The position numbers and the translations under genes are program-made. 64,000 bases of DNA from a virus (taxonomy: Duplodnaviria; Heunggongvirae; Uroviricota; Caudoviricetes). Of this stretch, positions 3,721-51,080 are shown in pieces (position 1 is the first letter of the stretch; every line of letters starts with the position of its first letter). The stretch lies in IMG/VR virus record IMGVR_UViG_3300033692_000022, one strand, 5' to 3'. Under the pieces are notes generated by a model, which did not search any database, was not told where the DNA came from, and saw nothing but the letters and a program-made list of their open reading frames with translations.

Positions 3721-4539
3721 ATGCTAGAAAAAAAGACATATAATGAATTAATGGATGAAGCCCTTTATCTTATTCCTAGAAATACTGATATTACAAATGT
3801 GAACCCGGGCGGAATAGCAAGAAGTCTTTTAGAGATACAAAATAGACAGCTTGCTAAATACTATGACACTCTTGAGGTAAATCATGCTTTGGGATTCCTT
3901 TCAGAAACTAAGGGTGAATACCTTGATCTGATAGGTCAAATGATGGACTGTCAAAGAGAGCCAGAAGAGGGCGACGAAAATTACAGGTACAGGATAAGCC
4001 AGAAGGTAAATACAGCAGCTAAAGCAAATAAGATGGCTATTAGACTTGGATGTTTAAGTGTAGATGGAGTAAGAGATATAAAGATGAAACGATGGGTGCA
4101 GGGCACGGGTTCTTTTGCAGTTTATGTAATATCTGAAGAAGGAATAGTATCAGACGAGCTATTAGAGAGAGTACAGAAAAAGATAGATGAAGTACAGGCC
4201 TATGGCAACAAGGGTATAGCCGTCAAGCCCAATGAAATAAAACTTGAGATGAAAGTGCGTATAACCTATTCTTCAGATACCACTGAGGTAGAAAAAAGAA
4301 ATGTGGCCCTAGATGCAAGAAGAAACTTAAGAAAGTATATACAGAACTTAAGTATAGGTGAGGACTTAATAATAAACGAAGCCATAGAACGTGTAATGAA
4401 CACCAGTAATCAGATTAAAAATATGAATATCTACCATTTATCACTTAGAGGTAGGCCAGTATTGCTCAGTGATCAGACAGTTTACTGGGATGAGATAATA
4501 GTAGAATCAGATAAACCCAATTCAGTATATGTAAGCTAA
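3721..4539 (+). CDS. Baseplate J-like protein
   Basis: The N-terminal region (DEALYLIPRNTDITNVNPGGIARSLLEIQNRQLAKYYDTLEVNHALGFLSETKGEYLDLIG) matches the Baseplate_J family signature. Strong ribosome-binding site AAGGAGGAAGAAAATG. Confidence 0.6.
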   Translation: MLEKKTYNELMDEALYLIPRNTDITNVNPGGIARSLLEIQNRQLAKYYDTLEVNHALGFLSETKGEYLDLIGQMMDCQREPEEGDENYRYRISQKVNTAAKANKMAIRLGCLSVDGVRDIKMKRWVQGTGSFAVYVISEEGIVSDELLERVQKKIDEVQAYGNKGIAVKPNEIKLEMKVRITYSSDTTEVEKRNVALDARRNLRKYIQNLSIGEDLIINEAIERVMNTSNQIKNMNIYHLSLRGRPVLLSDQTVYWDEIIVESDKPNSVYVS

Positions 4540-32707: not shown

Positions 32708-33325
32708 ATGTCGATACTAGGAGAATTACCAGATTGGGATGCGCCGTCTAATAAAATAATAGAACCAGATATAACTAAAAAAACTAGTGGCTGGAATCCA
32801 GGGGAAAGGCCTCCAGCCTACTATTTTAATTGGTTCTGGACGAGAGTATCAAACGCTCTAAAAATTTTAGACGCACACAATCACGATAGTTTGTATTATA
32901 AAAAATCCGAGATAGACAGCAAAATACAGCAATCAGTAGCAAGCAATGAAGACTTGGTAGAATCAATGTACCCAATAGGATCAATTTATATTAATGCAAC
33001 AAACAATACCAATCCTGGCACTTTATTAGGCTTTGGAACTTGGGAAAGATTTGGTGAAGGTAGAGTATTAGTCAGCCAAGATAGCACAGATGCGGATTTT
33101 GATGCAATTGGCGAAACAGGCGGAGAAAAAACACATCAATTAACTGAATCAGAAATGCCATCGCATAATCACAATTATACCAGAGTATCGGGAGGTTATG
33201 GAGGTGGTGGTCTTAATGTAGATGGCAGCACAAGTACAGTACCTACTAGTCTAGCTGGCGGCGATTCTCCCCATAACAACCTTCAACCATACATCACAGT
33301 TTATATGTGGGTAAGAATATCATAA
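32708..33325 (+). CDS. Tail fiber with conserved N-terminal anchor and a C-terminal phage tail-collar-like domain
   Basis: N-terminal LPDWDAPSNKIIEPD...GWNPGERPPAYYFNWFWTRVSNALKILDAHNHDSLYY. The C-terminal PIGSIYINATNNTNPGTLLGFGTWERFGEGRVLV...GGEKTHQLTESEMPSHNHNY...PHNNLQPYITVYMWVRI fits the Collar (PF07484-like) pattern. Confidence 0.55.
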   Translation: MSILGELPDWDAPSNKIIEPDITKKTSGWNPGERPPAYYFNWFWTRVSNALKILDAHNHDSLYYKKSEIDSKIQQSVASNEDLVESMYPIGSIYINATNNTNPGTLLGFGTWERFGEGRVLVSQDSTDADFDAIGETGGEKTHQLTESEMPSHNHNYTRVSGGYGGGGLNVDGSTSTVPTSLAGGDSPHNNLQPYITVYMWVRIS

Positions 33326-33355: not shown

Positions 33356-34129
33356 ATGGATAGCTTTTATCTTCCAGAATGGACCCCACCAGCCAATATG
33401 CTGGTGGAACCAGAGATTGAAAGAAGAAACCTAGGATGGGGCGCTGGAGAATCACCACCTGCAGGTGTGTTTAACTGGTTTTGGAATAAGACATATAATG
33501 CTTTAAAAGTAATAAGAGACCACGATCATGATGCAAGATATTATACTAGAATGGAAATGGGAAATATTATTTCCAATATGGCCCCAAAGGAACATGAACA
33601 CGAAGGTTCAGATATTATATCTAAAGTATCAGAGGCAGCAAATGCAGACGAGGCAACAAACTCACAAACACTTCAGGGCAGACCACCAGAACAGTTTGCC
33701 GACAATGTACACTACCACGATGATAGATACTACACAGAAGACGAGATCGATCAAAAGCTAGGCTTCAAATCCAACACTGGCCACACTCACAACTACGCGC
33801 CAGCAGAACACATCCATGATGATATATATAAAACTGAATCAGAGATAATTAATCTTGCCAAAGCAGTTAGCGTAGAAGATATATCAATAATCCAGGGGAC
33901 AATAGAAGACGGAGAGAAACTACCATTACCAAACGGCTACACTGAAAGTCAATGCAGTTGGGTAGTATCACCAAGACAGGTGGCCACAACCGGTAGAACT
34001 GACGGATATGACGATGGTAAGGGAATAAGATTCTATGCAGATAATGATCGTAACGTTATTGCTAGATTCGATGGGCTTGGTGAAGTTTCTGGTACTGCTA
34101 ACTTTATAGTTATAGGAGTTAAAAAATAA
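33356..34129 (+). CDS. Tail fiber with conserved N-terminal anchor and His-rich HxHD-RYY repeats
   Basis: N-terminal LPEWTPPANMLVEPE...GWGAGESPPAGVFNWFWNKTYNALKVIRDHDHDARYYTR. Further repeats KEHEHEGSD, VHYHDDRYYTEDEIDQKL, GHTHNYAPAEHIHDDIYKTESEI. Confidence 0.5.
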   Translation: MDSFYLPEWTPPANMLVEPEIERRNLGWGAGESPPAGVFNWFWNKTYNALKVIRDHDHDARYYTRMEMGNIISNMAPKEHEHEGSDIISKVSEAANADEATNSQTLQGRPPEQFADNVHYHDDRYYTEDEIDQKLGFKSNTGHTHNYAPAEHIHDDIYKTESEIINLAKAVSVEDISIIQGTIEDGEKLPLPNGYTESQCSWVVSPRQVATTGRTDGYDDGKGIRFYADNDRNVIARFDGLGEVSGTANFIVIGVKK

Positions 34130-35543: not shown

Positions 35544-36374
35544 ATGGGATTATTAAATAATATACCGGGCTGGAATGCCCCAGAAGAAAAAGTAGTAGAG
35601 CCAAAACAGGTAAAAAAAGATAGCGGCTGGAATCCAGGAGAAAGACCACCCGCATATGTATTTAACTGGATGTGGAACATGGTATCAAATGCCCTAGAAA
35701 CACTGAGCAATCACTTACATGATGATAGGTACTCAAAGAAAGACCACACTCACAGCGTGACTGAAGTATCTGGTAAGATAGATAATGCAGCTTATGCTGA
35801 TAACGCAGACAAGTTAGATGGTAGAGACGCCTCGGATTTTGCCTCAAGTTCACACTCCCACCCCTACTCTCCAGAAAACCACACCCATGATGGAAGATAC
35901 TATAAAGAATCTGAAGTCAACAACCTTATAAATAACCTACAAAATGAAGTAAACAATCTTAAAAACCAATCTATGGATCTTGAAAATGTTTATCCAGTAG
36001 GATCGCTATATTTTAATGCAGTCAGCGGTCAAAACCCTGAAACTCTTTTAGGTTTTGGTAAGTGGCAGCGCTTTTCTAAAGGTAGAGTATTAGTAGGATT
36101 AGATGAAAGTGATGGTAATTTTAACGGGTTACAGGAAAGAGGAGGAGCAAAAACACACAGACTTACCGATGCAGAAATGCCAAAACACAAACATATCTCG
36201 CCTTATGGTGATACTTGGAACACTCCATGGGGGACATATGGTAACTGGAAAACAGGTTCTGGGGATTCAGATAGTGACAACCACTACCACTGGACAAGTC
36301 CAGCAGGAGGAGATAAGCCACACAACAACCTGCAGCCTTATATCACGGTCTATATTTGGCGCAGAACACAGTAA
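35544..36374 (+). CDS. Tail fiber with conserved N-terminal anchor, HxH repeats and a tail-collar-like C-terminal domain
   Basis: N-terminal IPGWNAPEEKVVEPK...GWNPGERPPAYVFNWMWNMVSNALETLSNHLHDDRYSKKDHTH. The C-terminal PVGSLYFNAVSGQNPETLLGFGKWQRFSKGRVLV...GGAKTHRLTDAEMPKHKHI...PHNNLQPYITVYIWRRT is paralogous to the 32708 C-terminus. Confidence 0.55.
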   Translation: MGLLNNIPGWNAPEEKVVEPKQVKKDSGWNPGERPPAYVFNWMWNMVSNALETLSNHLHDDRYSKKDHTHSVTEVSGKIDNAAYADNADKLDGRDASDFASSSHSHPYSPENHTHDGRYYKESEVNNLINNLQNEVNNLKNQSMDLENVYPVGSLYFNAVSGQNPETLLGFGKWQRFSKGRVLVGLDESDGNFNGLQERGGAKTHRLTDAEMPKHKHISPYGDTWNTPWGTYGNWKTGSGDSDSDNHYHWTSPAGGDKPHNNLQPYITVYIWRRTQ

Positions 36375-36387
36375 AGGAGGTGCTTAG

Positions 36388-38367
36388 ATGCCACTAACAG
36401 AAACAGAAGTAGAAAATAGGATTATAGAGTTAGAGTCGGCTCTCGACTTACACAATCATATAACATCGTTTAGTGATGGTAGTGGTGGCAATCCGATACA
36501 AAGTAACGCATTAGATTCTGAGCTTAAAACAGAGATAGAAACTAATATCTCTCACAGAGATGTAGTCGACGCAAATCCACATCAAACAAAAGCCCACCAG
36601 ATACAGATAACAGCAGGAGATTATGCTTCACATAATATCCAACAGGCACTAGATATAATAAAGTCTAAAAGCAAAAATGACTATAGCGAGTTAGAAGAGT
36701 TAAGCAATGCCCTTGCTAATACGATTAAGACTGGCGATGCAGTAACTGATTGGACAATAGAAGAGTCATCTATTAAAAACAACAGAGCTTTATTTAATAA
36801 GATAGAATCTCATAATCATGATTCAAGATATACGAAACCATTTGAGCTAGAAAATGAGATTAACAGTCACTCTGAAAGCAACGCTCATGATGAAAGATAT
36901 TACACTAAAAACTATTTAGACAGTGAATTTGGAACAAAATCTGATAAGACACATCTTCATGATGCAATCTATCTTAGAAGACCAGAACTTGATGACTTAT
37001 ATTTTAATGTAGCCGATGACGAATTAAATATCGACCTAGAAATCAATAAGACATCTCCTAAGCTGACATTAAATGATGAATCAACCAATGGTAAGCTGGT
37101 AGAGATAACCTCCACAGATGAAAGATTCCTGCTTAAGATGAACGGCAATAATAAGCTGGACCTTCAAAATGATTTAGTAGTGGATATACCTGGTAATATA
37201 ATTCTTAGAGACACTCCAGTATCACTCGAAGGACACGTGCATGATAATAGATATTATCAAAAATATCAGGTAGAAGACTTACTATCAACTAAATCGGAAC
37301 AAGGCCATATTCATGATCATATATATTACAGACAGTCAAAGGTTCATAGCCTATTGGATGAGAAGACAGATTTAGATCATAAACACGAAGATATTTATTA
37401 CAATAAAACAGCAGCAGATAATAGGTTTGTTAATAATACCGTAGACACAATAGATGAATTAACAGTAAATGACAAACTGAACCTTAACGACAGGGCATAT
37501 TTTGATGAAAGTGGTTTGATTTTTAAAAGCTACAATTCAACAATAAGTATCGATAATGATAGTGATAATAATTTAGGTCTCAATATTAGGTCTGGAAACT
37601 TAGATCAAATATATCTCAATACGGATAAAGTAAAAGTAAGAAGTAATCTTGAAGTTGTAGGAGATATTCATCTAGGCCATAAAATAAATGGAGTCAAAAT
37701 AGAAGATTTTAAAGCAGAATATGATTTCCACGCATCAAAAGATGATGCTCACCATGAAAAATATACTGACCGAGAAGCAAGGGTCGCAATATATAATGAT
37801 GGCAACCATTATGAAATGGCAGACCATGTGCATAATCACAACACCCTTTATTATAAAAAAGAGTATATAAATTCAGCTCTATCCCAGAAGGCCGATAAAG
37901 ATCATGACCATGATTCAATGTATATGAGAATAGAAGAGGTAATAGAAAGACTAGATAATAAATCAGACAAGGGTCATCTCCACGATACAAGATACTATAC
38001 TAAAGATGAGATGAATCAACAGATAACCCTAATCGGAGATGAACTCCAGCTTAAGTCTGATAAGGGTCATGATCATAATGAAACATATTATACTCAGGCT
38101 GAAGTGGACCAGGAGATAAAAGATAAGACAGGTAATAGTGCCTATGTTGTAAGTGGTGAAATAATAACAGACATCAATGGTAGAGCAAAATTACCAATAC
38201 CATCCGGCTTTGATAGGCACGAGTGCCATTATATGGCCTCTGCTGGCCAGAATACTTTAGTTCCTTATTCCAGCTCTGGCGTGGAGATAAACAGAAATAC
38301 TGGAGATATACAAGTAAGTCCAAGTAGTGTAGATGCAGTAAACTATATGGTAATTGGAATCAGGTAG
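36388..38367 (+). CDS. Long fiber protein (659 aa) built from approximately 12 HxHD-x-RYY-TK histidine repeats
   Basis: Repeats include SHNHDSRYTK, AHDERYYTKNY, THLHDAIYLRR, GHVHDNRYYQKY, GHIHDHIYYRQS, DHKHEDIYYNK, HVHNHNTLYYKKEY, DHDHDSMYMRIEE, GHLHDTRYYTKDE, GHDHNETYYTQAE. Confidence 0.5.
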   Translation: MPLTETEVENRIIELESALDLHNHITSFSDGSGGNPIQSNALDSELKTEIETNISHRDVVDANPHQTKAHQIQITAGDYASHNIQQALDIIKSKSKNDYSELEELSNALANTIKTGDAVTDWTIEESSIKNNRALFNKIESHNHDSRYTKPFELENEINSHSESNAHDERYYTKNYLDSEFGTKSDKTHLHDAIYLRRPELDDLYFNVADDELNIDLEINKTSPKLTLNDESTNGKLVEITSTDERFLLKMNGNNKLDLQNDLVVDIPGNIILRDTPVSLEGHVHDNRYYQKYQVEDLLSTKSEQGHIHDHIYYRQSKVHSLLDEKTDLDHKHEDIYYNKTAADNRFVNNTVDTIDELTVNDKLNLNDRAYFDESGLIFKSYNSTISIDNDSDNNLGLNIRSGNLDQIYLNTDKVKVRSNLEVVGDIHLGHKINGVKIEDFKAEYDFHASKDDAHHEKYTDREARVAIYNDGNHYEMADHVHNHNTLYYKKEYINSALSQKADKDHDHDSMYMRIEEVIERLDNKSDKGHLHDTRYYTKDEMNQQITLIGDELQLKSDKGHDHNETYYTQAEVDQEIKDKTGNSAYVVSGEIITDINGRAKLPIPSGFDRHECHYMASAGQNTLVPYSSSGVEINRNTGDIQVSPSSVDAVNYMVIGIR

Positions 38368-39469: not shown

Positions 39470-39835
39470 GTGAAAAATATCGCCCTAAAAGGAGGTTCCA
39501 ATAATATGTACGAATACAAAGCAGTAGTTACAAGAATCATAGATGGTGACACATTCGAAGCCAACATAGATTTAGGCTTTAAAACCTACCAGCAGCAAAC
39601 ATTTAGGTTAAAAGGAGTAGATACTCCAGAAGTCTACGGCGCAGAAAAGGCAAGAGGGCTTAAGGCTTCAGATGTTGTAGAAAGAATGATACTTGGTAAA
39701 GAAGTAATAATCAGATCAGAAAAGTCTGGCAGCTTCGGCCGCTGGATAGCAGATGTAGATATAGAAACAGACAGAGGAAAAGTAAACTTAAACCAGTTTC
39801 TTTTGGATAATGGGTTAGCAAATAAATATGAATAG
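39470..39835 (+). CDS. Staphylococcal-nuclease (SNase/thermonuclease)-like protein
   Basis: YKAVVTRIIDGDTFEANIDLGFKTYQQQTFRLKGVDTPEVYG...GKEVIIRSEKSGSFGRWIADV matches the SNase core (V.DGDT....RL.G.D.PE...GR). Confidence 0.55.
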   Translation: MKNIALKGGSNNMYEYKAVVTRIIDGDTFEANIDLGFKTYQQQTFRLKGVDTPEVYGAEKARGLKASDVVERMILGKEVIIRSEKSGSFGRWIADVDIETDRGKVNLNQFLLDNGLANKYE

Positions 39836-39847
39836 AGGTGCATAATA

Positions 39848-42334
39848 GTGGCCAATGATTATATAGAAGATTTCATGAGCACACTTCCAAAGTACCAGAG
39901 AAAAGAAATGCACAAGATACTCGGGGAAGAGGAAGAACTCGACCTAATAAAGAGCAAAGAAGAATATGAGTCAGAGCTTGAGAAACTTATAAGTAAGATA
40001 AATGAAGAGTCTCCAGAACCCCTGATGAAGACCAGGGAGCAGAAAAACAAAACCAACTCTGAAGATTTCAACGAAACTTTTAGCGAAGTAAATATAGACC
40101 TCAATTCATTATTTCACCAATCGACAGGTCTCGACAATATAATTTCTAAACATCATCAGCTAAATAAATCGGGACTTATGATGATAAAAGACAATATCAA
40201 ACAAATTGAAAATGAAGTGGAAAGATACATGATGCTGCTTGGGAACAATGAAGGTTTTGTCGATTCCTTCTATGAAACATTTTTGACATCTTCCAATGTT
40301 GAAAAAGACAGCAAGTACTACACGGATCCTGCAAGTGGTGGCATTATAGAAAATGACAGGCGAGCAGAGATAGACCAGACAGGAGAGTCTTTAAAGCTGG
40401 CCACTACAGAAAGCATTGATGCTATCACAAACGATAACGGCTCTAAGATGGCCAAAGTTAATATCTTAAGGCAACCCGGCAGTGGATTTATAGGCGAAGC
40501 CAACAAAACATACGACATAGAAAAAGCGATAGATACTGACCTTGAGAGCTTCTGGGGAGAAGTAATACTATCAGACAAAGAAATGAGAATAGACTTTAGT
40601 GATTTTAATATAACTGAAGGTGCCTTCTGTGAGTTCGAGGTAGTATTTAACTCGTTATCTGTTATATCCGAGATAACAATGGCCCCTTTTACAGAGTTCC
40701 CAATAGATGTGCTTGGCATTAGATCATATGACGGCCTTGAGGATTCTGCAGAGATAACAGAAATAATAACTCCAGATAATTCGATACCAATCGACGAACC
40801 AGAAACTATACAGTTTGAAGCTATAGAGTCGCGAAGATTAGTATTTGTAGTAAACCAGAAACACTACCGAGAAAACAACTATCTTATCAAAAAATCAGAG
40901 AGAAATAATATAGAGATGTGGCAGAAAATAAGCAACAAGGAAAAAGAAGTAACTCTTTCTGGTAACTGGGAGGATGAGGAGAGAGAGAACATCAACCCTA
41001 CAGTAAGTCAGGATTTTCTCAATACAATAAGCGGCTGGGACCTATACGAAAGAAAACTTAAAGAGTTTAATAGAATGGTCGCTAAAAACAGAAGTTCTTC
41101 TAATACCTGGGGTCTTATCGGAGGCATACTAACAGCAGGAGCTGTAGTAATGACCGGCGGCGCACTATCACCAGCATTAACACTGGGAGCATTAGGTGCC
41201 GGGATAGGAGTAGGTAACGCGATCAAAGAAGGACTCTTAGAAGATTACGACTTCAGAAAAGATAAACTTGTAGAAGTAGATAAAAAAGAATACATCTACG
41301 GCCTCTATGACCTTGATATAAGAGGTAATAAATACCTAAACAGTTCGATATATGTATCAAAACCGATCAGTACACCACCAAATCTAGCTCAGGTGGCACT
41401 TGATACAACTGAAGTGCACCCAGATGTTGATGGTAAAGAAGTAACAGATATAGAATTTTATGTTACTAATATGGATGAACCTACAGATGATGACTGGTAT
41501 CCCATACTTCCTAACAATAAAAAAATAATAAAGTCTGAAAGATTATTTTTAGATGCCAGAACAAGTAAGGCCAGGCTTAAATTTGAAGTAGAGAAAATGA
41601 ACAGCATAGAGATATATAAGAATAGCGAAAAACTTCCAGCTTCTAAGTATGATATTAGTAATATCTCAGAGAATGGAAGAGTAATAACAGAAGTTACATT
41701 CCACGACTTCGAGATAAACGCTATCTATTCTGCCTCCTACAGACCTAAAAGTAGTGCACATCTGATTGATTTTACAAGCTCTGAAGACACAACCAAACTC
41801 ACAGCAACAGAGAAGTTCAAGAATGGAGCTGGCAGAAACGGCAGCATAAACTTAAAACACTATCCATATATAGACTACGAGAAAATAAATATGGCCGAGA
41901 AAGCAGAGGAAGATGGTTATGATCCAAATACTAACAATTATCGCCCGATAGAAGTAAAACTTAACGGCGAGTTCGAGGGTATAAACACATCTGTAATTCA
42001 ACCATATCATAAGAATACAGCCGGGCCAGCAACCAAAAACACTACTGATTATACAAGTAAGATACAGACTACTCTTAGAGGTTATGATAAAGATAGCAAT
42101 CCTTATTTCGAGTACAGACAGGATGGCAATAAACTATTTTTTAATGACACATTTAATGAATACGACAATGTAGACAGCATAAGGGCTAATGCAGAAATAG
42201 AGGTAAAGTATTCCTACCTTATCTCAAAGCTAAGAGTAAAAGCCGTAATGAGAAGAAATGTTCCCGGCAATGAATCTGTAACTCCAATACTTGAAGATTA
42301 CACCCTTAAGTTTAAGACAGTTAATATAGGGTAG
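39848..42334 (+). CDS. Large virion-associated protein, paralog family member 1, with discoidin/F5-8-type-C-like domain and a glycine-zipper hydrophobic segment
   Basis: N-terminal coiled region with EDFNETFSEVNIDL. IDTDLESFWGEVIL is an FA58C-like motif. WGLIGGILTAGAVVMTGGALSPALTLGALGAGIGVGNAI is a Gly-zipper TM-like segment. Confidence 0.4.
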   Translation: MANDYIEDFMSTLPKYQRKEMHKILGEEEELDLIKSKEEYESELEKLISKINEESPEPLMKTREQKNKTNSEDFNETFSEVNIDLNSLFHQSTGLDNIISKHHQLNKSGLMMIKDNIKQIENEVERYMMLLGNNEGFVDSFYETFLTSSNVEKDSKYYTDPASGGIIENDRRAEIDQTGESLKLATTESIDAITNDNGSKMAKVNILRQPGSGFIGEANKTYDIEKAIDTDLESFWGEVILSDKEMRIDFSDFNITEGAFCEFEVVFNSLSVISEITMAPFTEFPIDVLGIRSYDGLEDSAEITEIITPDNSIPIDEPETIQFEAIESRRLVFVVNQKHYRENNYLIKKSERNNIEMWQKISNKEKEVTLSGNWEDEERENINPTVSQDFLNTISGWDLYERKLKEFNRMVAKNRSSSNTWGLIGGILTAGAVVMTGGALSPALTLGALGAGIGVGNAIKEGLLEDYDFRKDKLVEVDKKEYIYGLYDLDIRGNKYLNSSIYVSKPISTPPNLAQVALDTTEVHPDVDGKEVTDIEFYVTNMDEPTDDDWYPILPNNKKIIKSERLFLDARTSKARLKFEVEKMNSIEIYKNSEKLPASKYDISNISENGRVITEVTFHDFEINAIYSASYRPKSSAHLIDFTSSEDTTKLTATEKFKNGAGRNGSINLKHYPYIDYEKINMAEKAEEDGYDPNTNNYRPIEVKLNGEFEGINTSVIQPYHKNTAGPATKNTTDYTSKIQTTLRGYDKDSNPYFEYRQDGNKLFFNDTFNEYDNVDSIRANAEIEVKYSYLISKLRVKAVMRRNVPGNESVTPILEDYTLKFKTVNIG

Positions 42335-42344
42335 GAGGTATAAA

Positions 42345-44369
42345 ATGGCGGATAAATATAGAATAAAAAAACACAGCAATATCCTAATCAAGCAAGCTAA
42401 AGACATCATAGATAAGATAGGAAATAAGATAAGAGATAATAACCTATCAGAAGCCTCTAAAGTAACAAGAGAAATGCTTGAAGGATTAAAAGATATGTTT
42501 ACTAATATAGGTAAACCCGTAATGAAAAAGAGATATGCACCGGTTGATGGACCACCTTGGTCTGAGGATTACAATAAGACCATGGAAGAAATTAATGAGG
42601 ATTTATGGACTGCCTATAATGAAATGGAATCACTACAGGACGGAGTTAAAACTGACTTTAACTTTAACAGCACACAGAGAGAGAACCTGAAAAATAGAAT
42701 AAAAGTACTTGAAGAAAGATTAGAAGATTTTGTACTATTTACAAATATAGATAATGACTTAGTGCACGCTAAGGATACTTTTAAAAACTTAAGTAAAGTT
42801 GATGTTCGAGGTACGAGGCTCAAATCAGCAGATGTAGAAACCGAAACAGGTCTTGTTACGCTAGAAAAGTCAGGATCAGAAAACCTATCTAGCAGCTGCA
42901 AGGTAAATATAGTAAGAAGCGACTCCAATGGTTTTCCTGGAAACTTACATCAAGTTAAAAATATAGCTTATGATGGAGCGACTCGTTTTAAACCTATAAA
43001 AAGAAAAGAACCAGAATGGAAGTTCTATGGCGAAGAAGATATGCACATCGTACCCGAGTACATGATAGATGAAAATCCAGATACCTGGTTTGAATATGAA
43101 ACTTGTGACATCCCAGTAGGCAAAAAAAGGCAACAGAAATTTTACGGTTTTGACTATAAGGGAGGAGAACAGTGGAGCAGAGACCCAGTAGAGCCTTACA
43201 AAAGAAGTGGAAACTATCAGGATACAAACAAACCAAACACTGAAAAACCATTAAGGCTTAGTATAGAACTTTCTTTAGAAGAAGCTCAAGTAATAAACTG
43301 GATAAATGTAAATCCTTATATACCGGCATTCGATGGTTCTGCTCCTCCTAAGATAATTGATATCTTAGTGTCAGACGGAGCAGGTTACGAGACTTCAGTA
43401 CTTGATTCAAATCATAAAAACCTAACACTATCAGAAGAACTCAATGAAACAAATCAGACTTATGAAAAAGATGAGGTAACGGGCAACAAAAACTTCGCTG
43501 GACAAGCAGTGTTCACATTCCCACCCACTAAAGCTAAAGTAATATCAATAATAATAGAACAGGAATCGCCTTATAACTGTAGGATAGGACATATTTACTA
43601 TCAGAGAGTAGATAAAATAAAGATTGAAGAAAGCGGCGCCTTTGGAGGTCTATTTGGAGGGGATGAGACCTCATACGAAACTAAAAGAACATATATTGAA
43701 GGGCCGAAAGTAGGATTATCACAATTGTATACAGAATGGGATGATAACTTAGGTATTACAGATTTGGGTGAAGATACATTCTTAGAGCCTATAACAGACA
43801 TATTGGGAGGGATATCAGGGTTCTTATTTGGCAGCACTGAAAAATCTCTTGTTAGCTCAAAGATAGAGTCTGGAATACATGGCTTCGAGGGATGGCGATG
43901 GGCTATAGGCGTTAAAGGAATAAACGTTTATGCTTTTGAGTATGCAGAACAGGGCGAGCTTTTATCAAAGACCCATATAGTTGGAGATAAAATAAAAAGA
44001 GTATCTCTTAATGTAAATGAAGAAATACCTGATATATTCGTCAATAACGAAAACTATGATAGAAGAAATGACTGGATTAAATACTATATATCTATTGACG
44101 GTAATACCTGGCACCGCATAAGCCCAGAAGGGCACGATGAAACAATAGAAAACGATGAGCTGGTACCAGAAGTATACATTATAAATAGTGAGGTTTCAGA
44201 AGAGAATAGAAACCCAAATGCAGGATACATCGAAACCGAAACTGATCCAGTAAACATCAAATTCAAGGCCATACTATCAAGGCCAACTAATATAGAGCAG
44301 GCAGAACATTTTACTCCAGTACTAAGAGGATATGCTCTAAAAATGCAAACTGAAGGTGAGAATGTATGA
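42345..44369 (+). CDS. Large virion-associated protein, paralog family member 2 (discoidin-like domain)
   Basis: The N-terminal block SEDYNKTMEEINEDLWTAYNEMESL is shared. MIDENPDTWFEYETCDIPV is the FA58C-like motif. ILGGISGFLFG is a Gly-rich hydrophobic patch. Confidence 0.4.
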   Translation: MADKYRIKKHSNILIKQAKDIIDKIGNKIRDNNLSEASKVTREMLEGLKDMFTNIGKPVMKKRYAPVDGPPWSEDYNKTMEEINEDLWTAYNEMESLQDGVKTDFNFNSTQRENLKNRIKVLEERLEDFVLFTNIDNDLVHAKDTFKNLSKVDVRGTRLKSADVETETGLVTLEKSGSENLSSSCKVNIVRSDSNGFPGNLHQVKNIAYDGATRFKPIKRKEPEWKFYGEEDMHIVPEYMIDENPDTWFEYETCDIPVGKKRQQKFYGFDYKGGEQWSRDPVEPYKRSGNYQDTNKPNTEKPLRLSIELSLEEAQVINWINVNPYIPAFDGSAPPKIIDILVSDGAGYETSVLDSNHKNLTLSEELNETNQTYEKDEVTGNKNFAGQAVFTFPPTKAKVISIIIEQESPYNCRIGHIYYQRVDKIKIEESGAFGGLFGGDETSYETKRTYIEGPKVGLSQLYTEWDDNLGITDLGEDTFLEPITDILGGISGFLFGSTEKSLVSSKIESGIHGFEGWRWAIGVKGINVYAFEYAEQGELLSKTHIVGDKIKRVSLNVNEEIPDIFVNNENYDRRNDWIKYYISIDGNTWHRISPEGHDETIENDELVPEVYIINSEVSEENRNPNAGYIETETDPVNIKFKAILSRPTNIEQAEHFTPVLRGYALKMQTEGENV

Positions 44370-46393
44370 GCATAAAAAGAAGACACATCAGAGAAAAACT
44401 TGAGAAAGTAATCAAGGAAGAGATACAAAAAGGGAAATATCCGAGCACAGAAACCATAAATAAGAGAATGAGCGATGAATTTGATAAGCATACTCCTGGA
44501 CTACCAAAGTTTAAACCTATAGAGGCCCCCAAAAACGGAGTCTCCGATCCTCACGACTATAACGAAATGATAGATAATATCTATGACGATCTGCATATGG
44601 TATTTTCAGAGACATCATCTCAGGCAAAACGGCTCTTAAAGAACTTCGACTACGGGGAGGTCGAAAGAAATAAGATACTAAAGAGACTCGAGAGATTAAG
44701 TGATAATATAGATAACCTGCTTCTTTTAGCCGAAAACACCGAAGGCTATTTGGAAAGTCTTTATGATAACTTCCACGACTACTCTAAGGTTAATATGGAA
44801 AACACTACAGCAAATGTTGATCTTAGCAGCAGGGAAGTTACTTTAAGCCAGATAAAAAGCGATGGTAAAAAATATTCACTCAGAAACAGAAGGTACAGTA
44901 TAAACACTTTAGATGATGGCAGCAGCATAGAAAATATAGAATCATTTAATAATGCACTCGATGATTATCTCAATACAGCCTGGCTATCTAAGGTAACTAA
45001 GAAAGAAAAGGGGCCAGCCTCAATAGAGGTAGTAATAAACCTAACAGAACTCGATAACGATAAGGATAATCCGCTGGCAGATGAGATACCAGTAAGCTCA
45101 ATAAGTTTTGTAGATTCAAGTCCAGATATCACAAACCTATCTGTTATGTGGTCTAATGATGACATAAATTACTTCTATATAGACGATAACAAAAGAAGTG
45201 TTGATGTAATAGAAAAAGAGACATTTACCTGTGAAGAAACATATATGCAGTACATCAAACTAATCTTAACCAAAGATAAACCAGACGAACAGTTAAGCGA
45301 TGGCCGCTATATATACAGGTTCGGCGCCAAAGGAATAGATGTTAAAAAGGTAGGGTTTAAGGAAGCAGGTAGATTTGAGTCTAAGTATCTTACAATAGAA
45401 AACACAGATGAAACCAATCCTATTAATCAGGTAGCTTTAAATGTTGAAGATGAGACTCCTAAATTCACTTCGATAGATTACTTCCTCCGCTTTCCACAAA
45501 GTAACGGCTTCATTCCAATCAGTCCGATAGATGATCCTAATCCTAAACACCAGAAGGTAATAAACCTCGAAAACATCTCCACACCTAACCCTGTAAATAT
45601 ATCGGGCGGCAAAAACAACTATTTAACCCACAACGGTATAGACTTCTATAAACTTAAGACACTTGAACATACCCCAAGAAAAAATAGCGTAGAGCTATTC
45701 AGGGGTAAAAACATGTGGAAGAAGGAAGAATTTAATACCTCGACTTATGAGGGAATGGATACAAGGCATAACCCGATAGGAAAAGACTGGCTTAACCTAC
45801 CAGAAGATGTATCAGAAAAGGATATTAAAAAGAGCTTCATTAATGCAACTGGCAACCTGAGCAAAGATAGCAGCAAGGGTACGATGACCAGATGGACTAC
45901 TTACCTTTACTGCAGTTCAACTAAGGTAGTAAAAGAAACAATGACAACTGCAGGAGATATAAACTCTAATATTATTCTAAATGGAAGTACTATCAGCATA
46001 GATGAAAACGGAAAGTATGTTTTAAGAATACCAGAAGGCTGGAATAAGATAGAAGTCCTAAATTACAATATAAATGGTCACAGCGGCAACTTAAACATTA
46101 ATTTCAATCCAAAGACTGTAGGGAAGATGATAGCAGAAAATGCTCCACTCCAAGAAGTTAGTCTATATGACTTAAAGAATAATGTTTTGATGAATGACAA
46201 CAATAAGTTTGCTATGGACGAAGATAAAATCATATTAAATTATAATCCAGACGGTATTGGATACGAGGTAAGCTATTCTTACGGGATAGCAAATAACTTC
46301 AATGAAATAAAGTTTGCTGCAGAGTTAAAGAGAGAAAAAGATATAGCAGATCTTACTCCGAGACTCAAAAAGTACAACATAAGGATATCTTAG
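44366..46393 (+). CDS. Large virion-associated protein, paralog family member 3 (discoidin-like domain)
   Basis: PHDYNEMIDNIYDDLHMVFSETSSQ and ALDDYLNTAWLSKV motifs. The start overlaps the upstream stop (ATGA). Confidence 0.4.
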   Translation: MSIKRRHIREKLEKVIKEEIQKGKYPSTETINKRMSDEFDKHTPGLPKFKPIEAPKNGVSDPHDYNEMIDNIYDDLHMVFSETSSQAKRLLKNFDYGEVERNKILKRLERLSDNIDNLLLLAENTEGYLESLYDNFHDYSKVNMENTTANVDLSSREVTLSQIKSDGKKYSLRNRRYSINTLDDGSSIENIESFNNALDDYLNTAWLSKVTKKEKGPASIEVVINLTELDNDKDNPLADEIPVSSISFVDSSPDITNLSVMWSNDDINYFYIDDNKRSVDVIEKETFTCEETYMQYIKLILTKDKPDEQLSDGRYIYRFGAKGIDVKKVGFKEAGRFESKYLTIENTDETNPINQVALNVEDETPKFTSIDYFLRFPQSNGFIPISPIDDPNPKHQKVINLENISTPNPVNISGGKNNYLTHNGIDFYKLKTLEHTPRKNSVELFRGKNMWKKEEFNTSTYEGMDTRHNPIGKDWLNLPEDVSEKDIKKSFINATGNLSKDSSKGTMTRWTTYLYCSSTKVVKETMTTAGDINSNIILNGSTISIDENGKYVLRIPEGWNKIEVLNYNINGHSGNLNINFNPKTVGKMIAENAPLQEVSLYDLKNNVLMNDNNKFAMDEDKIILNYNPDGIGYEVSYSYGIANNFNEIKFAAELKREKDIADLTPRLKKYNIRIS

Positions 46394-46403
46394 GGGGGAT
46401 ATA

Positions 46404-46649
46404 ATGAGCAATTATAATATAGAGATGAAAAAGAGAAATGCCCGTTATCGCGGAGCAACTGAAAGTTATAAGTATTTAATAGATGCTCATGAAAGAATAG
46501 CCGACTTTCAAAACGCCTATGAAAATATAGAAAACACCAGAGAAAGTCTGGGAGATAGGAATAACTTAAGGCAGGAAAAAGATGAAAATGCCGCGCGGAT
46601 TACAGTAGTCAAAAAAGAATTAGATGCAATAATAAAGGAGGTAAGTTAA
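46404..46649 (+). CDS. Small hypothetical protein
   Basis: 81-aa ORF with ribosome-binding site TAGGGGGGATATAATG. Confidence 0.3.
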   Translation: MSNYNIEMKKRNARYRGATESYKYLIDAHERIADFQNAYENIENTRESLGDRNNLRQEKDENAARITVVKKELDAIIKEVS

Positions 46650-47897
46650 ATGGATAACGAGTTTACTCCAAGTTTAAAGAAACCCAATGTGAGATACAGA
46701 GGTAAAACCTCCAGTGAAGAATATAACCAGATGACAGAAGATCTATACTACGATCTGAGCAACATCTTCACTGAGACAAACAAAAACTCAAAGTATGCAA
46801 CCGAGCTAGTAGAACAACTTACACTAGAAAACAATATCTTAAGTAACCAGATAGATGAACTGGAAAGCAAGCTCGAAAACGTAAAGAATCTATTAGTAGA
46901 AATTCAAAAGCGGAATAACCAGTTTAATAAATCGGTATTTGTTGGTGATTTCATAGAGGATCAGGAGCAAAATAACATCAACAAAGCCTTTATAGATAAA
47001 GAACACAGGGTAACTACTCTCCCCATAAGCGGGAAAGGAATAAGTAAGACACATATTTATGATTCATTTAAGGAGGAGGTGTTTATACCAGATGAGCTAA
47101 AGATATATTTCGACAAAGAGATCAACAGCTATCCAGACGCTGAAGAGAACGACCCTAAGAACGCATTTGATGGCCAGGACGAATCAGTGTGGATTAGACA
47201 GATAAGGTATCCAGAAGACGAGCCAAGATCAGAAGAAGAACTGACAATGTATGTCAAACTTCCTGAGAACATCATCAATAATAGACTAATGAATACTATA
47301 GTCGTCCATCCATTTCCTATTAATGGCTTAGATATCTTAAGTATAGAGTACTCAAAAGATGTAACCAATGATATGTCAAAGGCTAACTGGCAGATGATAC
47401 CAGGCTGGCCAAGAGACGAAAAACAGGACCTTACTACAGTTAATGATTCTGGCCCGGTCAAGTTCTGCTTTGAAGATATTAAAGCAAGCTGGATCAAGGT
47501 TAAATTAAGGCAGAAAAACAGTATAGTTAAGGGTAACATGAAGATATTTAACATAGGCTTAAAGCAGTTTGATATCAAATACAACAACTATACTTCAGAA
47601 AAGGCTTCATTTATAGTACCTGTAGACCTAACTGCACCAGAATCAGTACTTTATACAGTAAAAGACATACAAGCTGTAATAGATAATCAAAGCACTATTT
47701 CTAAAGATTATAGGCCTCTAACCTATGAGATATACGGAGTCAACCAGTTCGGAGAATTAGAATACATTGGGGATAACTTACCAATCAAAAACATTAAGTT
47801 TGAGAGGATTCAGATTAAAGCCACGATACATGCAGATAAAAACAAGGAATCAACTCCTGCGGTATCAGCCTTTAAGGTATTTTATGAGTCCATTTAA
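46650..47897 (+). CDS. Virion-associated protein, paralog family member 4 (discoidin-like domain)
   Basis: SEEYNQMTEDLYYDLSNIFTETNKN shared block. NAFDGQDESVWIRQI...VKFCFEDIKASWIKVKL is a galactose-binding-like / FA58C pattern. Confidence 0.4.
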   Translation: MDNEFTPSLKKPNVRYRGKTSSEEYNQMTEDLYYDLSNIFTETNKNSKYATELVEQLTLENNILSNQIDELESKLENVKNLLVEIQKRNNQFNKSVFVGDFIEDQEQNNINKAFIDKEHRVTTLPISGKGISKTHIYDSFKEEVFIPDELKIYFDKEINSYPDAEENDPKNAFDGQDESVWIRQIRYPEDEPRSEEELTMYVKLPENIINNRLMNTIVVHPFPINGLDILSIEYSKDVTNDMSKANWQMIPGWPRDEKQDLTTVNDSGPVKFCFEDIKASWIKVKLRQKNSIVKGNMKIFNIGLKQFDIKYNNYTSEKASFIVPVDLTAPESVLYTVKDIQAVIDNQSTISKDYRPLTYEIYGVNQFGELEYIGDNLPIKNIKFERIQIKATIHADKNKESTPAVSAFKVFYESI

Positions 47898-50255: not shown

Positions 50256-51080
50256 TTGATGAATATTAAAGAAGTTATGATGGCAGAACAGCCAGAAAAC
50301 GCAAAAGAGGTTATTGAGAGGAAATTGGACCCGAATTGGATTAAGCAAAGAAAGGGTAGAGGCGGAATTATGCTCGACTACCTAGAGGGGCACAGAGTAA
50401 TTGCTATTTTAAATGAGGCCTTTGATTACAAGTGGAGTTTCCAAGTTTTAAAAAAAGAAACAATCTCCCCGGGCAAAGGTAAAGAATTTGTAGAAGTCAT
50501 GGGTAGACTTACAATTCCAGGTGTCGGTGTTAAAGAGGCATACGGAACAAAAGAGCTTTACGGTGATCAGTCACAAGCGGCTAAAGCAGCAGCAACTGAC
50601 GCACTGAAAAAAGCAGCCAGTATGGCAGGAATTGGACTAGAACTTTGGAACGATGATGACGATTATAACTCCAACAATAGTTATGGTGGTAATAACAGTT
50701 ATGGAAATAATAACAGCTATAATAACAATAACTACAATAATAATAATGGTGGCAGTACTAATACTGGTACTAATACCAATACTGGTACTAATACTGGTAC
50801 CAAAAATGGTGGTAATAATGGTGGTAATAGTCAGCAGTCTAGTCAGGCCAACAACTCTAGAGGCGGAAAAACATGGGCGCAACCAGAAATAGTACAGGCG
50901 GCCAACAACCTAAAGACTAATAAACAGGCTTTAGGAGTCAAAAAGAACGAAGAGTTAAATGAGTACGTTAAGGAATGGTCTAATAACGACCTGAACTCAT
51001 GGCAGGATATTACTCCAGATAACATTCAAGATTTCAACAGCTGGCTACAGAACAATAAAATAGCAAAGCTATCAGCATAA
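50256..51080 (+). CDS. Rad52-family single-strand annealing protein with a low-complexity N/G/T/S-rich C-terminal tail
   Basis: GHRVIAILNEAFDYKWSFQV...VMGRLTIPGVGVKEAYG...AAKAAATDALKKAASMAGIGLELW matches the Rad52/Rad22/Sak N-terminal annealing domain. The tail is NNSYGGNNSYGNNNSYNN...TNTGTNTNTGTNTGT. Confidence 0.6.
   Translation: MMNIKEVMMAEQPENAKEVIERKLDPNWIKQRKGRGGIMLDYLEGHRVIAILNEAFDYKWSFQVLKKETISPGKGKEFVEVMGRLTIPGVGVKEAYGTKELYGDQSQAAKAAATDALKKAASMAGIGLELWNDDDDYNSNNSYGGNNSYGNNNSYNNNNYNNNNGGSTNTGTNTNTGTNTGTKNGGNNGGNSQQSSQANNSRGGKTWAQPEIVQAANNLKTNKQALGVKKNEELNEYVKEWSNNDLNSWQDITPDNIQDFNSWLQNNKIAKLSA
50690..50860 (+). repeat. Short tandem codon repeats (AAT-AAC-AGT-TAT-GGT; ACT-AAT-ACT-GGT) encoding the low-complexity tail of the Rad52-like protein
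   Basis: aatagttatggtggtaataacagttatggaaataataacagctat... and actaatactggtactaataccaatactggtactaatactggtacc. Confidence 0.6.

What the first reader, a model, noticed from the sequence alone, without database searches (positions are those of the whole stretch)
39848..47897. Four-member paralogous family of large late proteins with discoidin/F5-8-type-C-like domains and glycine-zipper hydrophobic segments
**What the sequence shows**
- ORFs of 828, 674, 675 and 415 aa share an N-terminal block:
 - EDFNETFSEVNIDL;
 - EDYNKTMEEINEDLW;
 - HDYNEMIDNIYDDLH;
 - EEYNQMTEDLYYDLS.
- Each contains a galactose-binding-like motif:
 - DTDLESFWGE;
 - DENPDTWFEY;
 - DDYLNTAWLS;
 - NAFDGQDESVWIRQI.
- Two contain long Gly/Ala-rich TM-like stretches, for example WGLIGGILTAGAVVMTGGALSPALTLGALGAGIGVGNAI.
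- They lie between the fibers and the lysis cassette.

**Interpretation**
- They could be additional receptor-binding or depolymerase-like proteins, capsid or neck decoration, or a membrane-interacting set.
- The four-fold paralogy suggests host-range diversification.
Basis: partly seen in the sequence, partly recalled or inferred. Interest (0 to 1): 0.6.

Follow-up and report, generated by a model that had tools for sequence, protein, structure and literature searches.

The report
Conserved jumbo-phage virion lectin-like protein set
These genes are this phage's copies of a conserved five-protein set already detected in particles of Bacillus jumbo phage 0305phi8-36; each protein has a long helix and a sugar-binding-type domain, so the set is real and tidy but not a new kind of system.

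Summary

The shared plan is:
- an N-terminal coiled-coil helix of about 65 aa;
- a divergent F5/8-type-C (CBM32-like) β-sandwich;
- a second β-sandwich that ends in a conserved C-terminal strand.

The set is orthologous and syntenic to Bacillus phage 0305phi8-36 gp171-gp175, which that record annotates as found in virions by mass spectrometry, function unknown. The fixed gene order recurs in all 11 distinct relatives examined.

This is an ancient fixed set, not recent host-range diversification. Close strains differ mostly by synonymous changes here, while a fibre-adaptor gene varies far more. No depolymerase domain was found. The long hydrophobic Gly/Ala stretch is a clade-specific insert in one protein.

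Most likely role: glycan-binding appendage proteins at the tail or baseplate periphery. This is inferred, not shown.

The parts
39848..42334 (+). Paralogue A (828 aa), orthologue of 0305phi8-36 gp171. Layout: N-terminal helical region with the shared motif around N75; a CBM32-like domain around W236; a clade-specific hydrophobic Gly/Ala insert at residues 420-456; a junction strand at G485; a C-terminal domain ending in the 'TPILEDY' strand (P813).
   Evidence: phrog_20243, E=2.7e-132. tblastn to gp171. hhalign to B, C and D. Motif register. Insert analysis. The AF2 model was poor (pLDDT 43), so domain folds here rest on alignment to D.
42345..44369 (+). Paralogue B (674 aa), orthologue of gp172. 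It has the same plan (N77, W248, G522, P658), with short Gly-rich inserts at 431-439 and 486-498.
   Evidence: phrog_21108, E=6e-104. hhalign 99-99.5% to A and C. Weak Pfam F5_F8_type_C hit: 15.2 bits, below the 28.2-bit cut-off. Inserts are absent from distant orthologues.
44366..46393 (+). Paralogue C (675 aa), orthologue of gp173. It has the same plan (N66, W206, G320, P665). Its start overlaps the end of B by 4 nt.
   Evidence: phrog_19683, E=6.5e-79. The C-family profile hits CBM32 structures 2jd9 (E=4.4e-5) and 2j1a (E=2.6e-4). Two of 10 orthologues hit Pfam F5_F8_type_C, best E=3.9e-9. gp173 is a structural match to the D model in BFVD, E=3e-12.
46404..46649 (+). Small fifth paralogue (81 aa), orthologue of gp174. 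It consists only of the N-terminal helix module, and its stop codon abuts the start codon of D.
   Evidence: BLASTP to D E=1.4e-4 and to B E=2e-3. hhalign to the D N-terminus 87.8% over 79 columns. It holds the same position in every related locus, 81-86 aa in close relatives and 253-265 aa in the KLEB27-3/WH1 group.
46650..47897 (+). Paralogue D (415 aa), orthologue of gp175, the minimal full version of the shared plan. Layout: helix 23-89, then a CBM32-like β-sandwich carrying 'NAFDGQDESVW' (171-181), then a second β-sandwich ending in the conserved P403 strand.

Best explanation
**What it is.** The region encodes this jumbo phage's copy of the conserved gp171-gp175 virion module of the 0305phi8-36 lineage. 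It is five co-transcribed paralogous structural proteins.

**Shared build.**
- Each protein starts with an amphipathic coiled-coil helix of about 65 residues that carries a conserved polar motif, S-E-[DE]-[YF]-N...D-L.
- The four large proteins then have a divergent F5/8-type-C / CBM32-like β-sandwich and a second β-sandwich closed by a conserved C-terminal strand.
- A, B and C add further C-terminal β-rich material.

**Proposed mechanism (inferred).**
- The helices oligomerise and dock the proteins onto the periphery of the baseplate or tail tip.
- The docking would be either as coiled-coil oligomers on equivalent sites or as one mixed bundle.
- The CBM32-like domains point outward and bind cell-envelope glycans of the Gram-positive host, helping adsorption or orientation.

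**Shown:** paralogy, fold, orthology, synteny, purifying selection.
**Taken from the public record:** virion association of the orthologues.
**Inferred:** location on the tail, oligomeric state, glycan binding.
For: - **Orthology and synteny.** The module matches gp171-175, which the 0305phi8-36 record annotates as detected in virions by mass spectrometry.
- **Constant order.** The same A-B-C-small-D order is found in KLEB27-3, WH1, Moorella MTATph1, a digester metagenome contig and six distinct IMG/VR loci, five of which were analysed ORF by ORF.
- **Constant position.** In every annotated isolate genome the module follows a giant tail-fibre or structural gene and precedes lysis or replication genes. 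In this window it closes a baseplate and fibre gene block of about 35 kb.
- **Paralogy** over 250-472 columns.
- **Coiled coil.** Conserved hydrophobic positions in the D-family helix follow a 3-4-3-4 spacing. Hardies et al. 2007 (PMC2147016) predicted coiled coils in gp171-175.
- **Exposure.** Relatives fuse the module to adhesin-type repeats (Flg_new, InlB-B, Big_4) or to an extra F5_F8_type_C domain.
- **Non-covalent assembly.** The A orthologue is split into two or three genes (helix, CBM-like domain, C-terminal domain) in several relatives. A helix-only protein is always kept.
- **Tight gene packing.** Intergenic gaps within the module are 10, -4, 10 and 0 nt.
Against: - No direct evidence places these proteins on the tail as opposed to the neck or head. 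PHROGs only calls them 'virion structural protein'.
- None of the four window proteins reaches Pfam's F5_F8_type_C cut-off. Ligand-binding residues could not be assessed.
- The A828 model failed (pLDDT 43). About half of A, B and C therefore has no fold assignment.
- Oligomeric state was not modelled.
Confidence: 0.55

Rival explanations
1. The set is a purely architectural baseplate or tail-tip scaffold. The five paralogues would form a structural sub-complex in which the β-sandwiches mediate protein-protein contacts, for example holding the giant fibres. They would have no ligand-binding role.
For: - The set is strictly fixed in composition and order across a deep lineage. Evolution between strains is mostly synonymous. 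Identity to the nearest clade is 39-54%, in the upper part of the range of the flanking genes (26-66%) and above the fibre and lysis genes (26-51%).
- The conserved N-terminal motif and C-terminal strand shared by the paralogues suggest common packing interfaces.
Against: - The best sequence-level relatives are carbohydrate-binding CBM32 modules, not protein-binding members of the fold.
- Fusion to adhesin-type repeats in relatives argues for exposure to the outside.
Confidence: 0.22
2. The proteins are neck, collar or head appendages, like fibritin whiskers or head fibres. Coiled-coil stalks would carry lectin-like heads that decorate the capsid or neck and mediate environmental sensing or aggregation.
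For: - The architecture is an N-terminal coiled coil followed by globular β domains.
- PHROGs files the four families under 'head and packaging', though only with the generic label 'virion structural protein'.
- 0305phi8-36 virions are reported to aggregate (PMC2222632 abstract).
Against: - In every relative the genes sit at the distal end of the tail, baseplate and fibre block, directly after the giant tail-fibre gene and far from head genes.
- Hardies et al. assign this region to baseplate, fibre or appendage genes by gene order.
Confidence: 0.1
3. The paralogues are alternative receptor-binding proteins or depolymerases kept for host-range breadth.
For: - The CBM32-like domains and the position next to fibre genes fit.
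- C675 has a small cluster of amino-acid substitutions between strains at residues 564-585.
Against: - The set is ancient and fixed, with no copy-number variation or mosaicism across 11 distinct loci.
- A and B are identical between strains that differ in the Gp10_C fibre adaptor.
- No enzymatic domain was detected.
- The C-terminal ends are conserved among paralogues, whereas receptor-binding proteins would be expected to vary there.
Confidence: 0.08
4. The set acts on membranes or in genome ejection. The Gly/Ala hydrophobic segments would insert into the host membrane during infection.
For: - A828 residues 420-456 are 37 uncharged residues with a Kyte-Doolittle maximum of 1.70 and a central Ser-Pro.
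- The segment is 76% identical to the nearest clade, against 53% for the whole protein.
- B has short Gly-rich inserts at the same topological position.
Against: - The inserts exist only in the window's clade. They are missing from all Bacillus and Moorella phage orthologues and from the IMG/VR loci, so they cannot define the module's function.
- No Pfam glycine-zipper hit appears at E<=1.
- B's pieces are too short to span a membrane.
Confidence: 0.05

Closest known systems
Bacillus phage 0305phi8-36 gp171-gp175 (PHROGs 20243, 21108, 19683, 19670)
   Same: - The five genes correspond one-to-one, with the same order and similar sizes (755/591/686/82/398 aa against 828/674/675/81/415 aa).
- Identity is 27-30% over 80-96% of the length where measured, for A and D.
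- The position is the same: after the fibre genes and just upstream of small ORFs and the replication genes there, or of the lysis cassette here.
- All five are annotated there as virion proteins from mass spectrometry.
   Different: - The window's A and B carry clade-specific Gly/Ala hydrophobic inserts that gp171 and gp172 lack.
- The function of gp171-175 is itself unknown. The 2007 paper only notes coiled coils.
CBM32 / F5/8 type C (discoidin) domains, galactose-binding-like fold
   Same: - The opening signature 'NAxDG...T.W' is present.
- The C-family profile and some orthologues hit CBM32 or PF00754 by sequence.
   Different: - None of the four window proteins reaches Pfam's cut-off.
- The domain is embedded between a long coiled-coil helix and a second β-sandwich in a virion protein. 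It is not appended to a glycoside hydrolase.
- Ligand binding is untested.
Tripod and other peripheral baseplate complexes of Staphylococcus phage 812 / Kayvirus (PMC13433997)
   Same: - By the published description, tripod proteins combine helical 'spine' elements with CBM-like β-sandwich domains thought to bind wall glycans, and they dock as oligomers on the baseplate periphery.
   Different: - The superposition is poor (rmsd 22 Å).
- I could not establish which phi812 protein that chain is.
- There is no sequence similarity. The CBM families differ: 16 and 61 in the tripod, 32-like here.
- This is a working analogy, not membership.
T4 gp9/gp10-type trimeric peripheral baseplate proteins (recalled from memory)
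   Same: Both have an N-terminal coiled coil followed by two β-sandwich or jelly-roll domains. Both are encoded beside fibre genes. Two neighbouring genes in the window carry the Gp10_C domain.

Membership tests
0305phi8-36 gp171-175 virion module | Each of the four large proteins matches the corresponding family profile over its full length. | tested here: met
   PHROG E-values run from 7e-62 to 2.7e-132 over essentially the full length. tblastn to gp171 and gp175 covers 80-96%.
0305phi8-36 gp171-175 virion module | Conserved gene order A-B-C-small-D at the end of the tail and fibre gene block. | tested here: met
   The same order is found in L001, L002, L003, L005, L006 and in L007, L008, L010, L011 and L012, which were analysed ORF by ORF.
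0305phi8-36 gp171-175 virion module | Physical presence in purified virions. | not testable with these tools
   This is known only from the GenBank notes on 0305phi8-36: mass spectrometry, with gp172 and gp173 supported by single peptides. There are no data for this phage.
F5/8 type C / CBM32 (PF00754) | Score above Pfam's gathering cut-off (28.2 bits). | tested here: not met
   The only hit among the window proteins is B674 at 15.2 bits, E=0.024. A, C and D have no hit. Some orthologues do better: 2 of 10 C-family members, best E=3.9e-9, and 7 of 110 D-family members at E<=0.01.
F5/8 type C / CBM32 (PF00754) | Galactose-binding-like β-sandwich fold. | tested here: met
   [not shown]
F5/8 type C / CBM32 (PF00754) | Profile-level sequence homology, including the 'NAxDG...T.W' opening motif. 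| tested here: met
   The C-family profile hits 2jd9 at E=4.4e-5 and 2j1a at 2.6e-4. The D-family profile's best hit is the CBM32 4lks_A at E=0.024, with the motif aligned. The motif is the consensus of 125 family members.
F5/8 type C / CBM32 (PF00754) | Carbohydrate or other ligand binding at the loop face. | not testable with these tools
Transmembrane / glycine-zipper proteins | A hydrophobic segment of transmembrane length that is conserved across the family. | tested here: not met
   Only A828 has such a segment (420-456, Kyte-Doolittle maximum 1.70). B reaches only 1.10. The segment is absent from all orthologues outside the window's clade. No Pfam glycine-zipper family hits at E<=1.
Phage depolymerase / tailspike | A recognisable catalytic domain (β-helix lyase or hydrolase, glycosidase, esterase). 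| tested here: inconclusive
   No such hit appears in Pfam or in profile searches of PDB sequences for the A, B, C or D families. The C-terminal halves of A, B and C still lack a confident structure.

The most novel reading that the evidence does not exclude
The five paralogues may not act separately. They could assemble through their in-register N-terminal helices, including the helix-only 81-aa subunit, into one heteromeric coiled-coil stalk that displays several different CBM32-like heads. That would be a multivalent lectin appendage specific to the 0305phi8-36 lineage. In this clade, two of its subunits (A and B) would additionally have acquired fusion-peptide-like Gly/Ala hydrophobic inserts at the same topological site, for contact with the host membrane or with each other.
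Probability: 0.15. Interest if true: 0.6.

Novelty: new member of a known kind. Interest (0 to 1): 0.35.

Why it matters
- The 0305phi8-36-type jumbo phages are poorly understood, and gp171-175 have sat as 'virion structural protein, function unknown' since 2007.
- This work shows that the five proteins are one paralogous family with a common plan: coiled coil, CBM32-like domain, second β-sandwich. The module is also widespread in metagenomes: 413 clusters at 50% identity for the D type alone.
- That gives a concrete, testable hypothesis for a conserved part of these virions: a glycan-binding appendage.
- It also improves annotation of many metagenomic jumbo-phage contigs.
- It does not reveal a new kind of biological system.

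Tried and rejected
- **Megablast of the region against phages:** no match.
- **Single-protein scans of IMG/VR with D and A:** no relatives.
- **Broad alignments:** too divergent to seed contig scans.
- **Single-sequence PDB searches for A and D:** nothing useful.
- **Profile searches of PDB sequences for B and for the A C-terminal half:** only noise.
- **AlphaFold of A828 with a 6-sequence alignment:** failed (mean pLDDT 43). I did not run a fold search on it, and I drew no conclusion about the hydrophobic insert's conformation.
- **Foldseek against the PDB with the D model:** only generic tandem β-sandwich matches, TM below 0.25. I reject any specific reading of the PHM, IBDV VP2, Cry toxin or Anabaena CIS hits.
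- **The phi812 DUF4815 match:** kept only as an analogy.
- **Literature:** Thomas et al. 2007 (PMC2171028) is not held. No papers were found on KLEB27-3 or MTATph1. The deletion-mutant paper and the BpSp proteomics paper do not cover these genes. The text of Hardies 2007 does not discuss a paralogue family for gp171-175; its Figure 2 could not be seen.
- **Rejected readings:** recent duplication for host range, depolymerase, and a general membrane role, for the reasons given under rival explanations.


Full report
**1. The observation**

The four ORFs are present exactly as described: A 39848-42334 (828 aa), B 42345-44369 (674 aa), C 44366-46393 (675 aa) and D 46650-47897 (415 aa), all on the + strand.

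The genes are tightly packed. The gaps between successive genes of the module are 10, -4, 10 and 0 nt.

- Upstream are fibre-type genes: two proteins ending in the T4 Gp10_C domain, a 1496-aa Big_9/fn3/cadherin-like protein, a 659-aa protein with nine HxH-type repeats, and an SNase homologue.
- Downstream are a holin-like ORF, a 241-aa ORF, an Amidase_3 endolysin and a Phage_holin_6_1.

**2. Is the paralogy real?**

Pairwise BLASTP shows only weak N-terminal similarity, with E from 4e-9 to 0.07. That alone would be marginal.

I collected orthologues from five phage or metagenome loci and compared family profiles. All six pairs among A, B, C and D then give 97.2-99.5% hhalign probability over 251-472 aligned columns.

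- the Asn of the N-terminal block: A75/B77/C66/D26;
- the Trp of the 'galactose-binding-like' motif: A236/B248/C206/D181.

Two further shared landmarks came out of the same alignments:
- a junction strand around a conserved Gly (A485/B522/C320/D303), which aligns in all six pairs, in three of them only in a secondary hit;
- a C-terminal 'TP.L..Y' strand (P813/P658/P665), which aligns among A, B and C. The corresponding Pro in D (P403) is more than 90% conserved across the D family, although it was not aligned to the others.

It is a fifth member made of the N-terminal helix only: BLASTP to D gives E=1.4e-4, and hhalign to the D N-terminus gives 87.8% over 79 columns.

**3. What the proteins look like**

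*The D415 model.* An AlphaFold2 model built on a 12-sequence alignment has mean pLDDT 81.4. It shows one long helix (residues 23-89) followed by β-rich domains.

*The helix.* Conserved hydrophobic positions in the helix of 110 family members follow a 3-4-3-4 spacing, as in a coiled coil.

*Sequence evidence agrees with the fold:*
- The consensus of 125 D-family members keeps 'NAFDGxxxxxWxR'.
- The D-family profile's best PDB hit is a CBM32 that aligns this motif, at E=0.024.
- The C-family profile hits CBM32 structures significantly: 2jd9 at E=4.4e-5 and 2j1a at E=2.6e-4.
- F5_F8_type_C is the only recurrent Pfam family among orthologues: 7 of 110 D-type members and 2 of 10 C-type members, best E=3.9e-9.

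*Limit of the claim.* None of the four window proteins reaches the Pfam cut-off themselves. 'F5/8-type-C-like' is therefore right at the level of fold and remote homology, but not as formal Pfam membership.

*No full-length homologue.* Foldseek against the PDB gives only generic tandem β-sandwich matches with TM below 0.25. BFVD returns the family itself: gp175 at TM 0.67, and the C-type gp173 at E=3e-12.

*Gaps.* The A828 model failed (pLDDT 43). The C-terminal halves of A, B and C therefore have no fold assignment. Profile searches found no enzymatic domain in them.

**4. What the module is**

*Database matches.* PHROGs matches the four proteins end to end to four 'virion structural protein' families, with E from 7e-62 to 2.7e-132. 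tblastn finds only the 0305phi8-36 group among 50,697 phage records: 0305phi8-36, KLEB27-3, WH1, Edson and Moorella MTATph1.

*The 0305phi8-36 counterpart.* There the counterpart is the syntenic run gp171-gp175 (755, 591, 686, 82 and 398 aa). All five are annotated as found in virions by mass spectrometry, two of them from single peptides.

*Conserved order.* The order A-B-C-small-D recurs in every relative examined, including IMG/VR contigs of 150-264 kb. In several relatives A is split into two or three genes that correspond to the helix module, the CBM-like domain and the C-terminal domain.

*Breadth.* The exhaustive profile search finds 413 clusters at 50% identity for the D type. The module is therefore common in uncultured phages.

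*Literature.* Hardies et al. 2007 (PMC2147016) note only coiled coils in gp171-175. [quoted passage not shown] I found no later functional work.

*Source.* The window itself is identical over the region compared (window 29850-51840) to a 202,621-bp ENA metagenome contig.

**5. How it evolves**

*The set is ancient and fixed.* Orthologues are recognisable at 23-55% identity across hosts as far apart as Bacillus and Moorella. Paralogues within one genome are alignable only by profiles.

*Strain comparison.* Two near-identical strain variants were compared with the window:

| Gene | Identity to window | Amino-acid changes | Synonymous codon changes |
|---|---|---|---|
| A | 100% | 0 | not counted |
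| B | 100% | 0 | not counted |
| C | 98.2% | 12 | 23 |
| D | 99.3% | 3 | 20 |
| Gp10_C fibre adaptor (32708-33325) | 72%, with an indel | not counted | not counted |

*Nearest clade.* Against the nearest clade the module is 39-54% identical and collinear. That is higher than the fibre and lysis genes around it, which run 26-51%.

This is the pattern of core structural proteins, not of fast-evolving receptor-binding tips. The one hint of local variability is a cluster of 7 substitutions at C675 residues 564-585.

**6. The hydrophobic Gly/Ala segments**

- A828 residues 420-456 form a 37-residue uncharged stretch with a Kyte-Doolittle maximum of 1.70 and a central Ser-Pro.
- B674 has only short Gly-rich pieces, at 431-439 and 486-498.
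- Both lie in insertions found only in the window's clade. Both sit at the same topological place, the linker between the CBM-like domain and the junction strand.
- The A insert is 76% identical to the nearest clade, against 53% for the whole protein, so it is constrained.
- No Pfam glycine-zipper family matches.

The inserts cannot explain the function of the module as a whole. Their role is unexplained.

**7. Most likely mechanism and its status**

*Shown:* five paralogous proteins, a coiled-coil helix followed by a CBM32-like domain and a second β-sandwich, orthology to gp171-175, fixed synteny and purifying selection.

*From the public record:* the orthologues are virion proteins.

*Inferred:*
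- The helices oligomerise and dock the proteins on the baseplate or tail-tip periphery.
- The CBM32-like domains bind host envelope glycans.

*Support for exposure.* Relatives fuse the module to Listeria-Bacteroides repeats, InlB B-repeats, Big_4, or an additional bona fide F5_F8_type_C domain.

*Rivals.* The alternatives are a purely architectural role, neck or head appendages, alternative receptor-binding proteins, and a membrane role. They are weighed in the report sections.

**8. Verdict**

The region is a new member of an already catalogued, though functionally uncharacterised, virion protein module.

The added value lies in four points:
- unifying the four PHROG families and the small protein into one paralogous family;
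- assigning the fold;
- showing that the set is fixed rather than diversifying;
- flagging the clade-specific hydrophobic inserts.

Noticed in passing
window 36388-38367 (also 35544-36374 and 33356-34129): The 659-aa protein carries nine copies of an H-x-H-[DNE]-x-x-Y-Y type repeat. The two neighbouring fibre proteins carry two copies each. From memory, this resembles the metal-binding HxH repeats of T4 fibre proteins. That was not tested.
   Followed up: partly
window 32708-33325 and 35544-36374: Two proteins end in the T4 Gp10_C domain (PF21939). The first is the most variable gene between near-identical strains: 72% identity with an indel in L015. That makes it a better host-range candidate than the paralogue set.
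   Followed up: partly
window 39470-39835: A staphylococcal-nuclease homologue (PF00565, E=6e-10) sits inside the late structural operon, 12 nt upstream of the first paralogue. At the same position the nearest clade (L003) has a 96-aa ORF with no Pfam hit on record.
   Followed up: no
window 41105-41215 (A828 residues 420-456) and 43635-43838 (B674 residues 431-498): Clade-specific Gly/Ala hydrophobic inserts lie at the same topological position in two paralogues. The A insert is more conserved than the rest of the protein (76% against 53%). Their role is unexplained.
   Followed up: partly
window 46055-46120 (C675 residues 564-585): Seven of the 12 amino-acid differences between near-identical strains cluster in this 22-residue stretch of the C-terminal region. 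It may be a variable surface loop.
   Followed up: no
L002 11998-15471; L006 4906-7286; L007, L008, L012: The A orthologue is split into two or three separate genes (helix module, CBM-like domain, C-terminal domain) in KLEB27-3, WH1 and several IMG/VR contigs. In the same genomes the small helix-only protein is enlarged to 253-265 aa.
   Followed up: partly
window 50256-51080: This protein aligns (66% identity over its first 134 residues) with the ORF that carries Rad52_Rad22 (PF04098) in L003. It has a long Asn/Gly/Ser/Tyr low-complexity linker in the middle. The window ORF was not scanned against Pfam.
   Followed up: no
window 5-2392 and 3721-4539: The window opens in the baseplate: a hub or tail-lysin-like protein that matches an endolysin PHROG, and a baseplate wedge subunit (phrog_6). 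About 35 kb of baseplate, fibre and other virion-protein genes therefore precede the module.
   Followed up: partly
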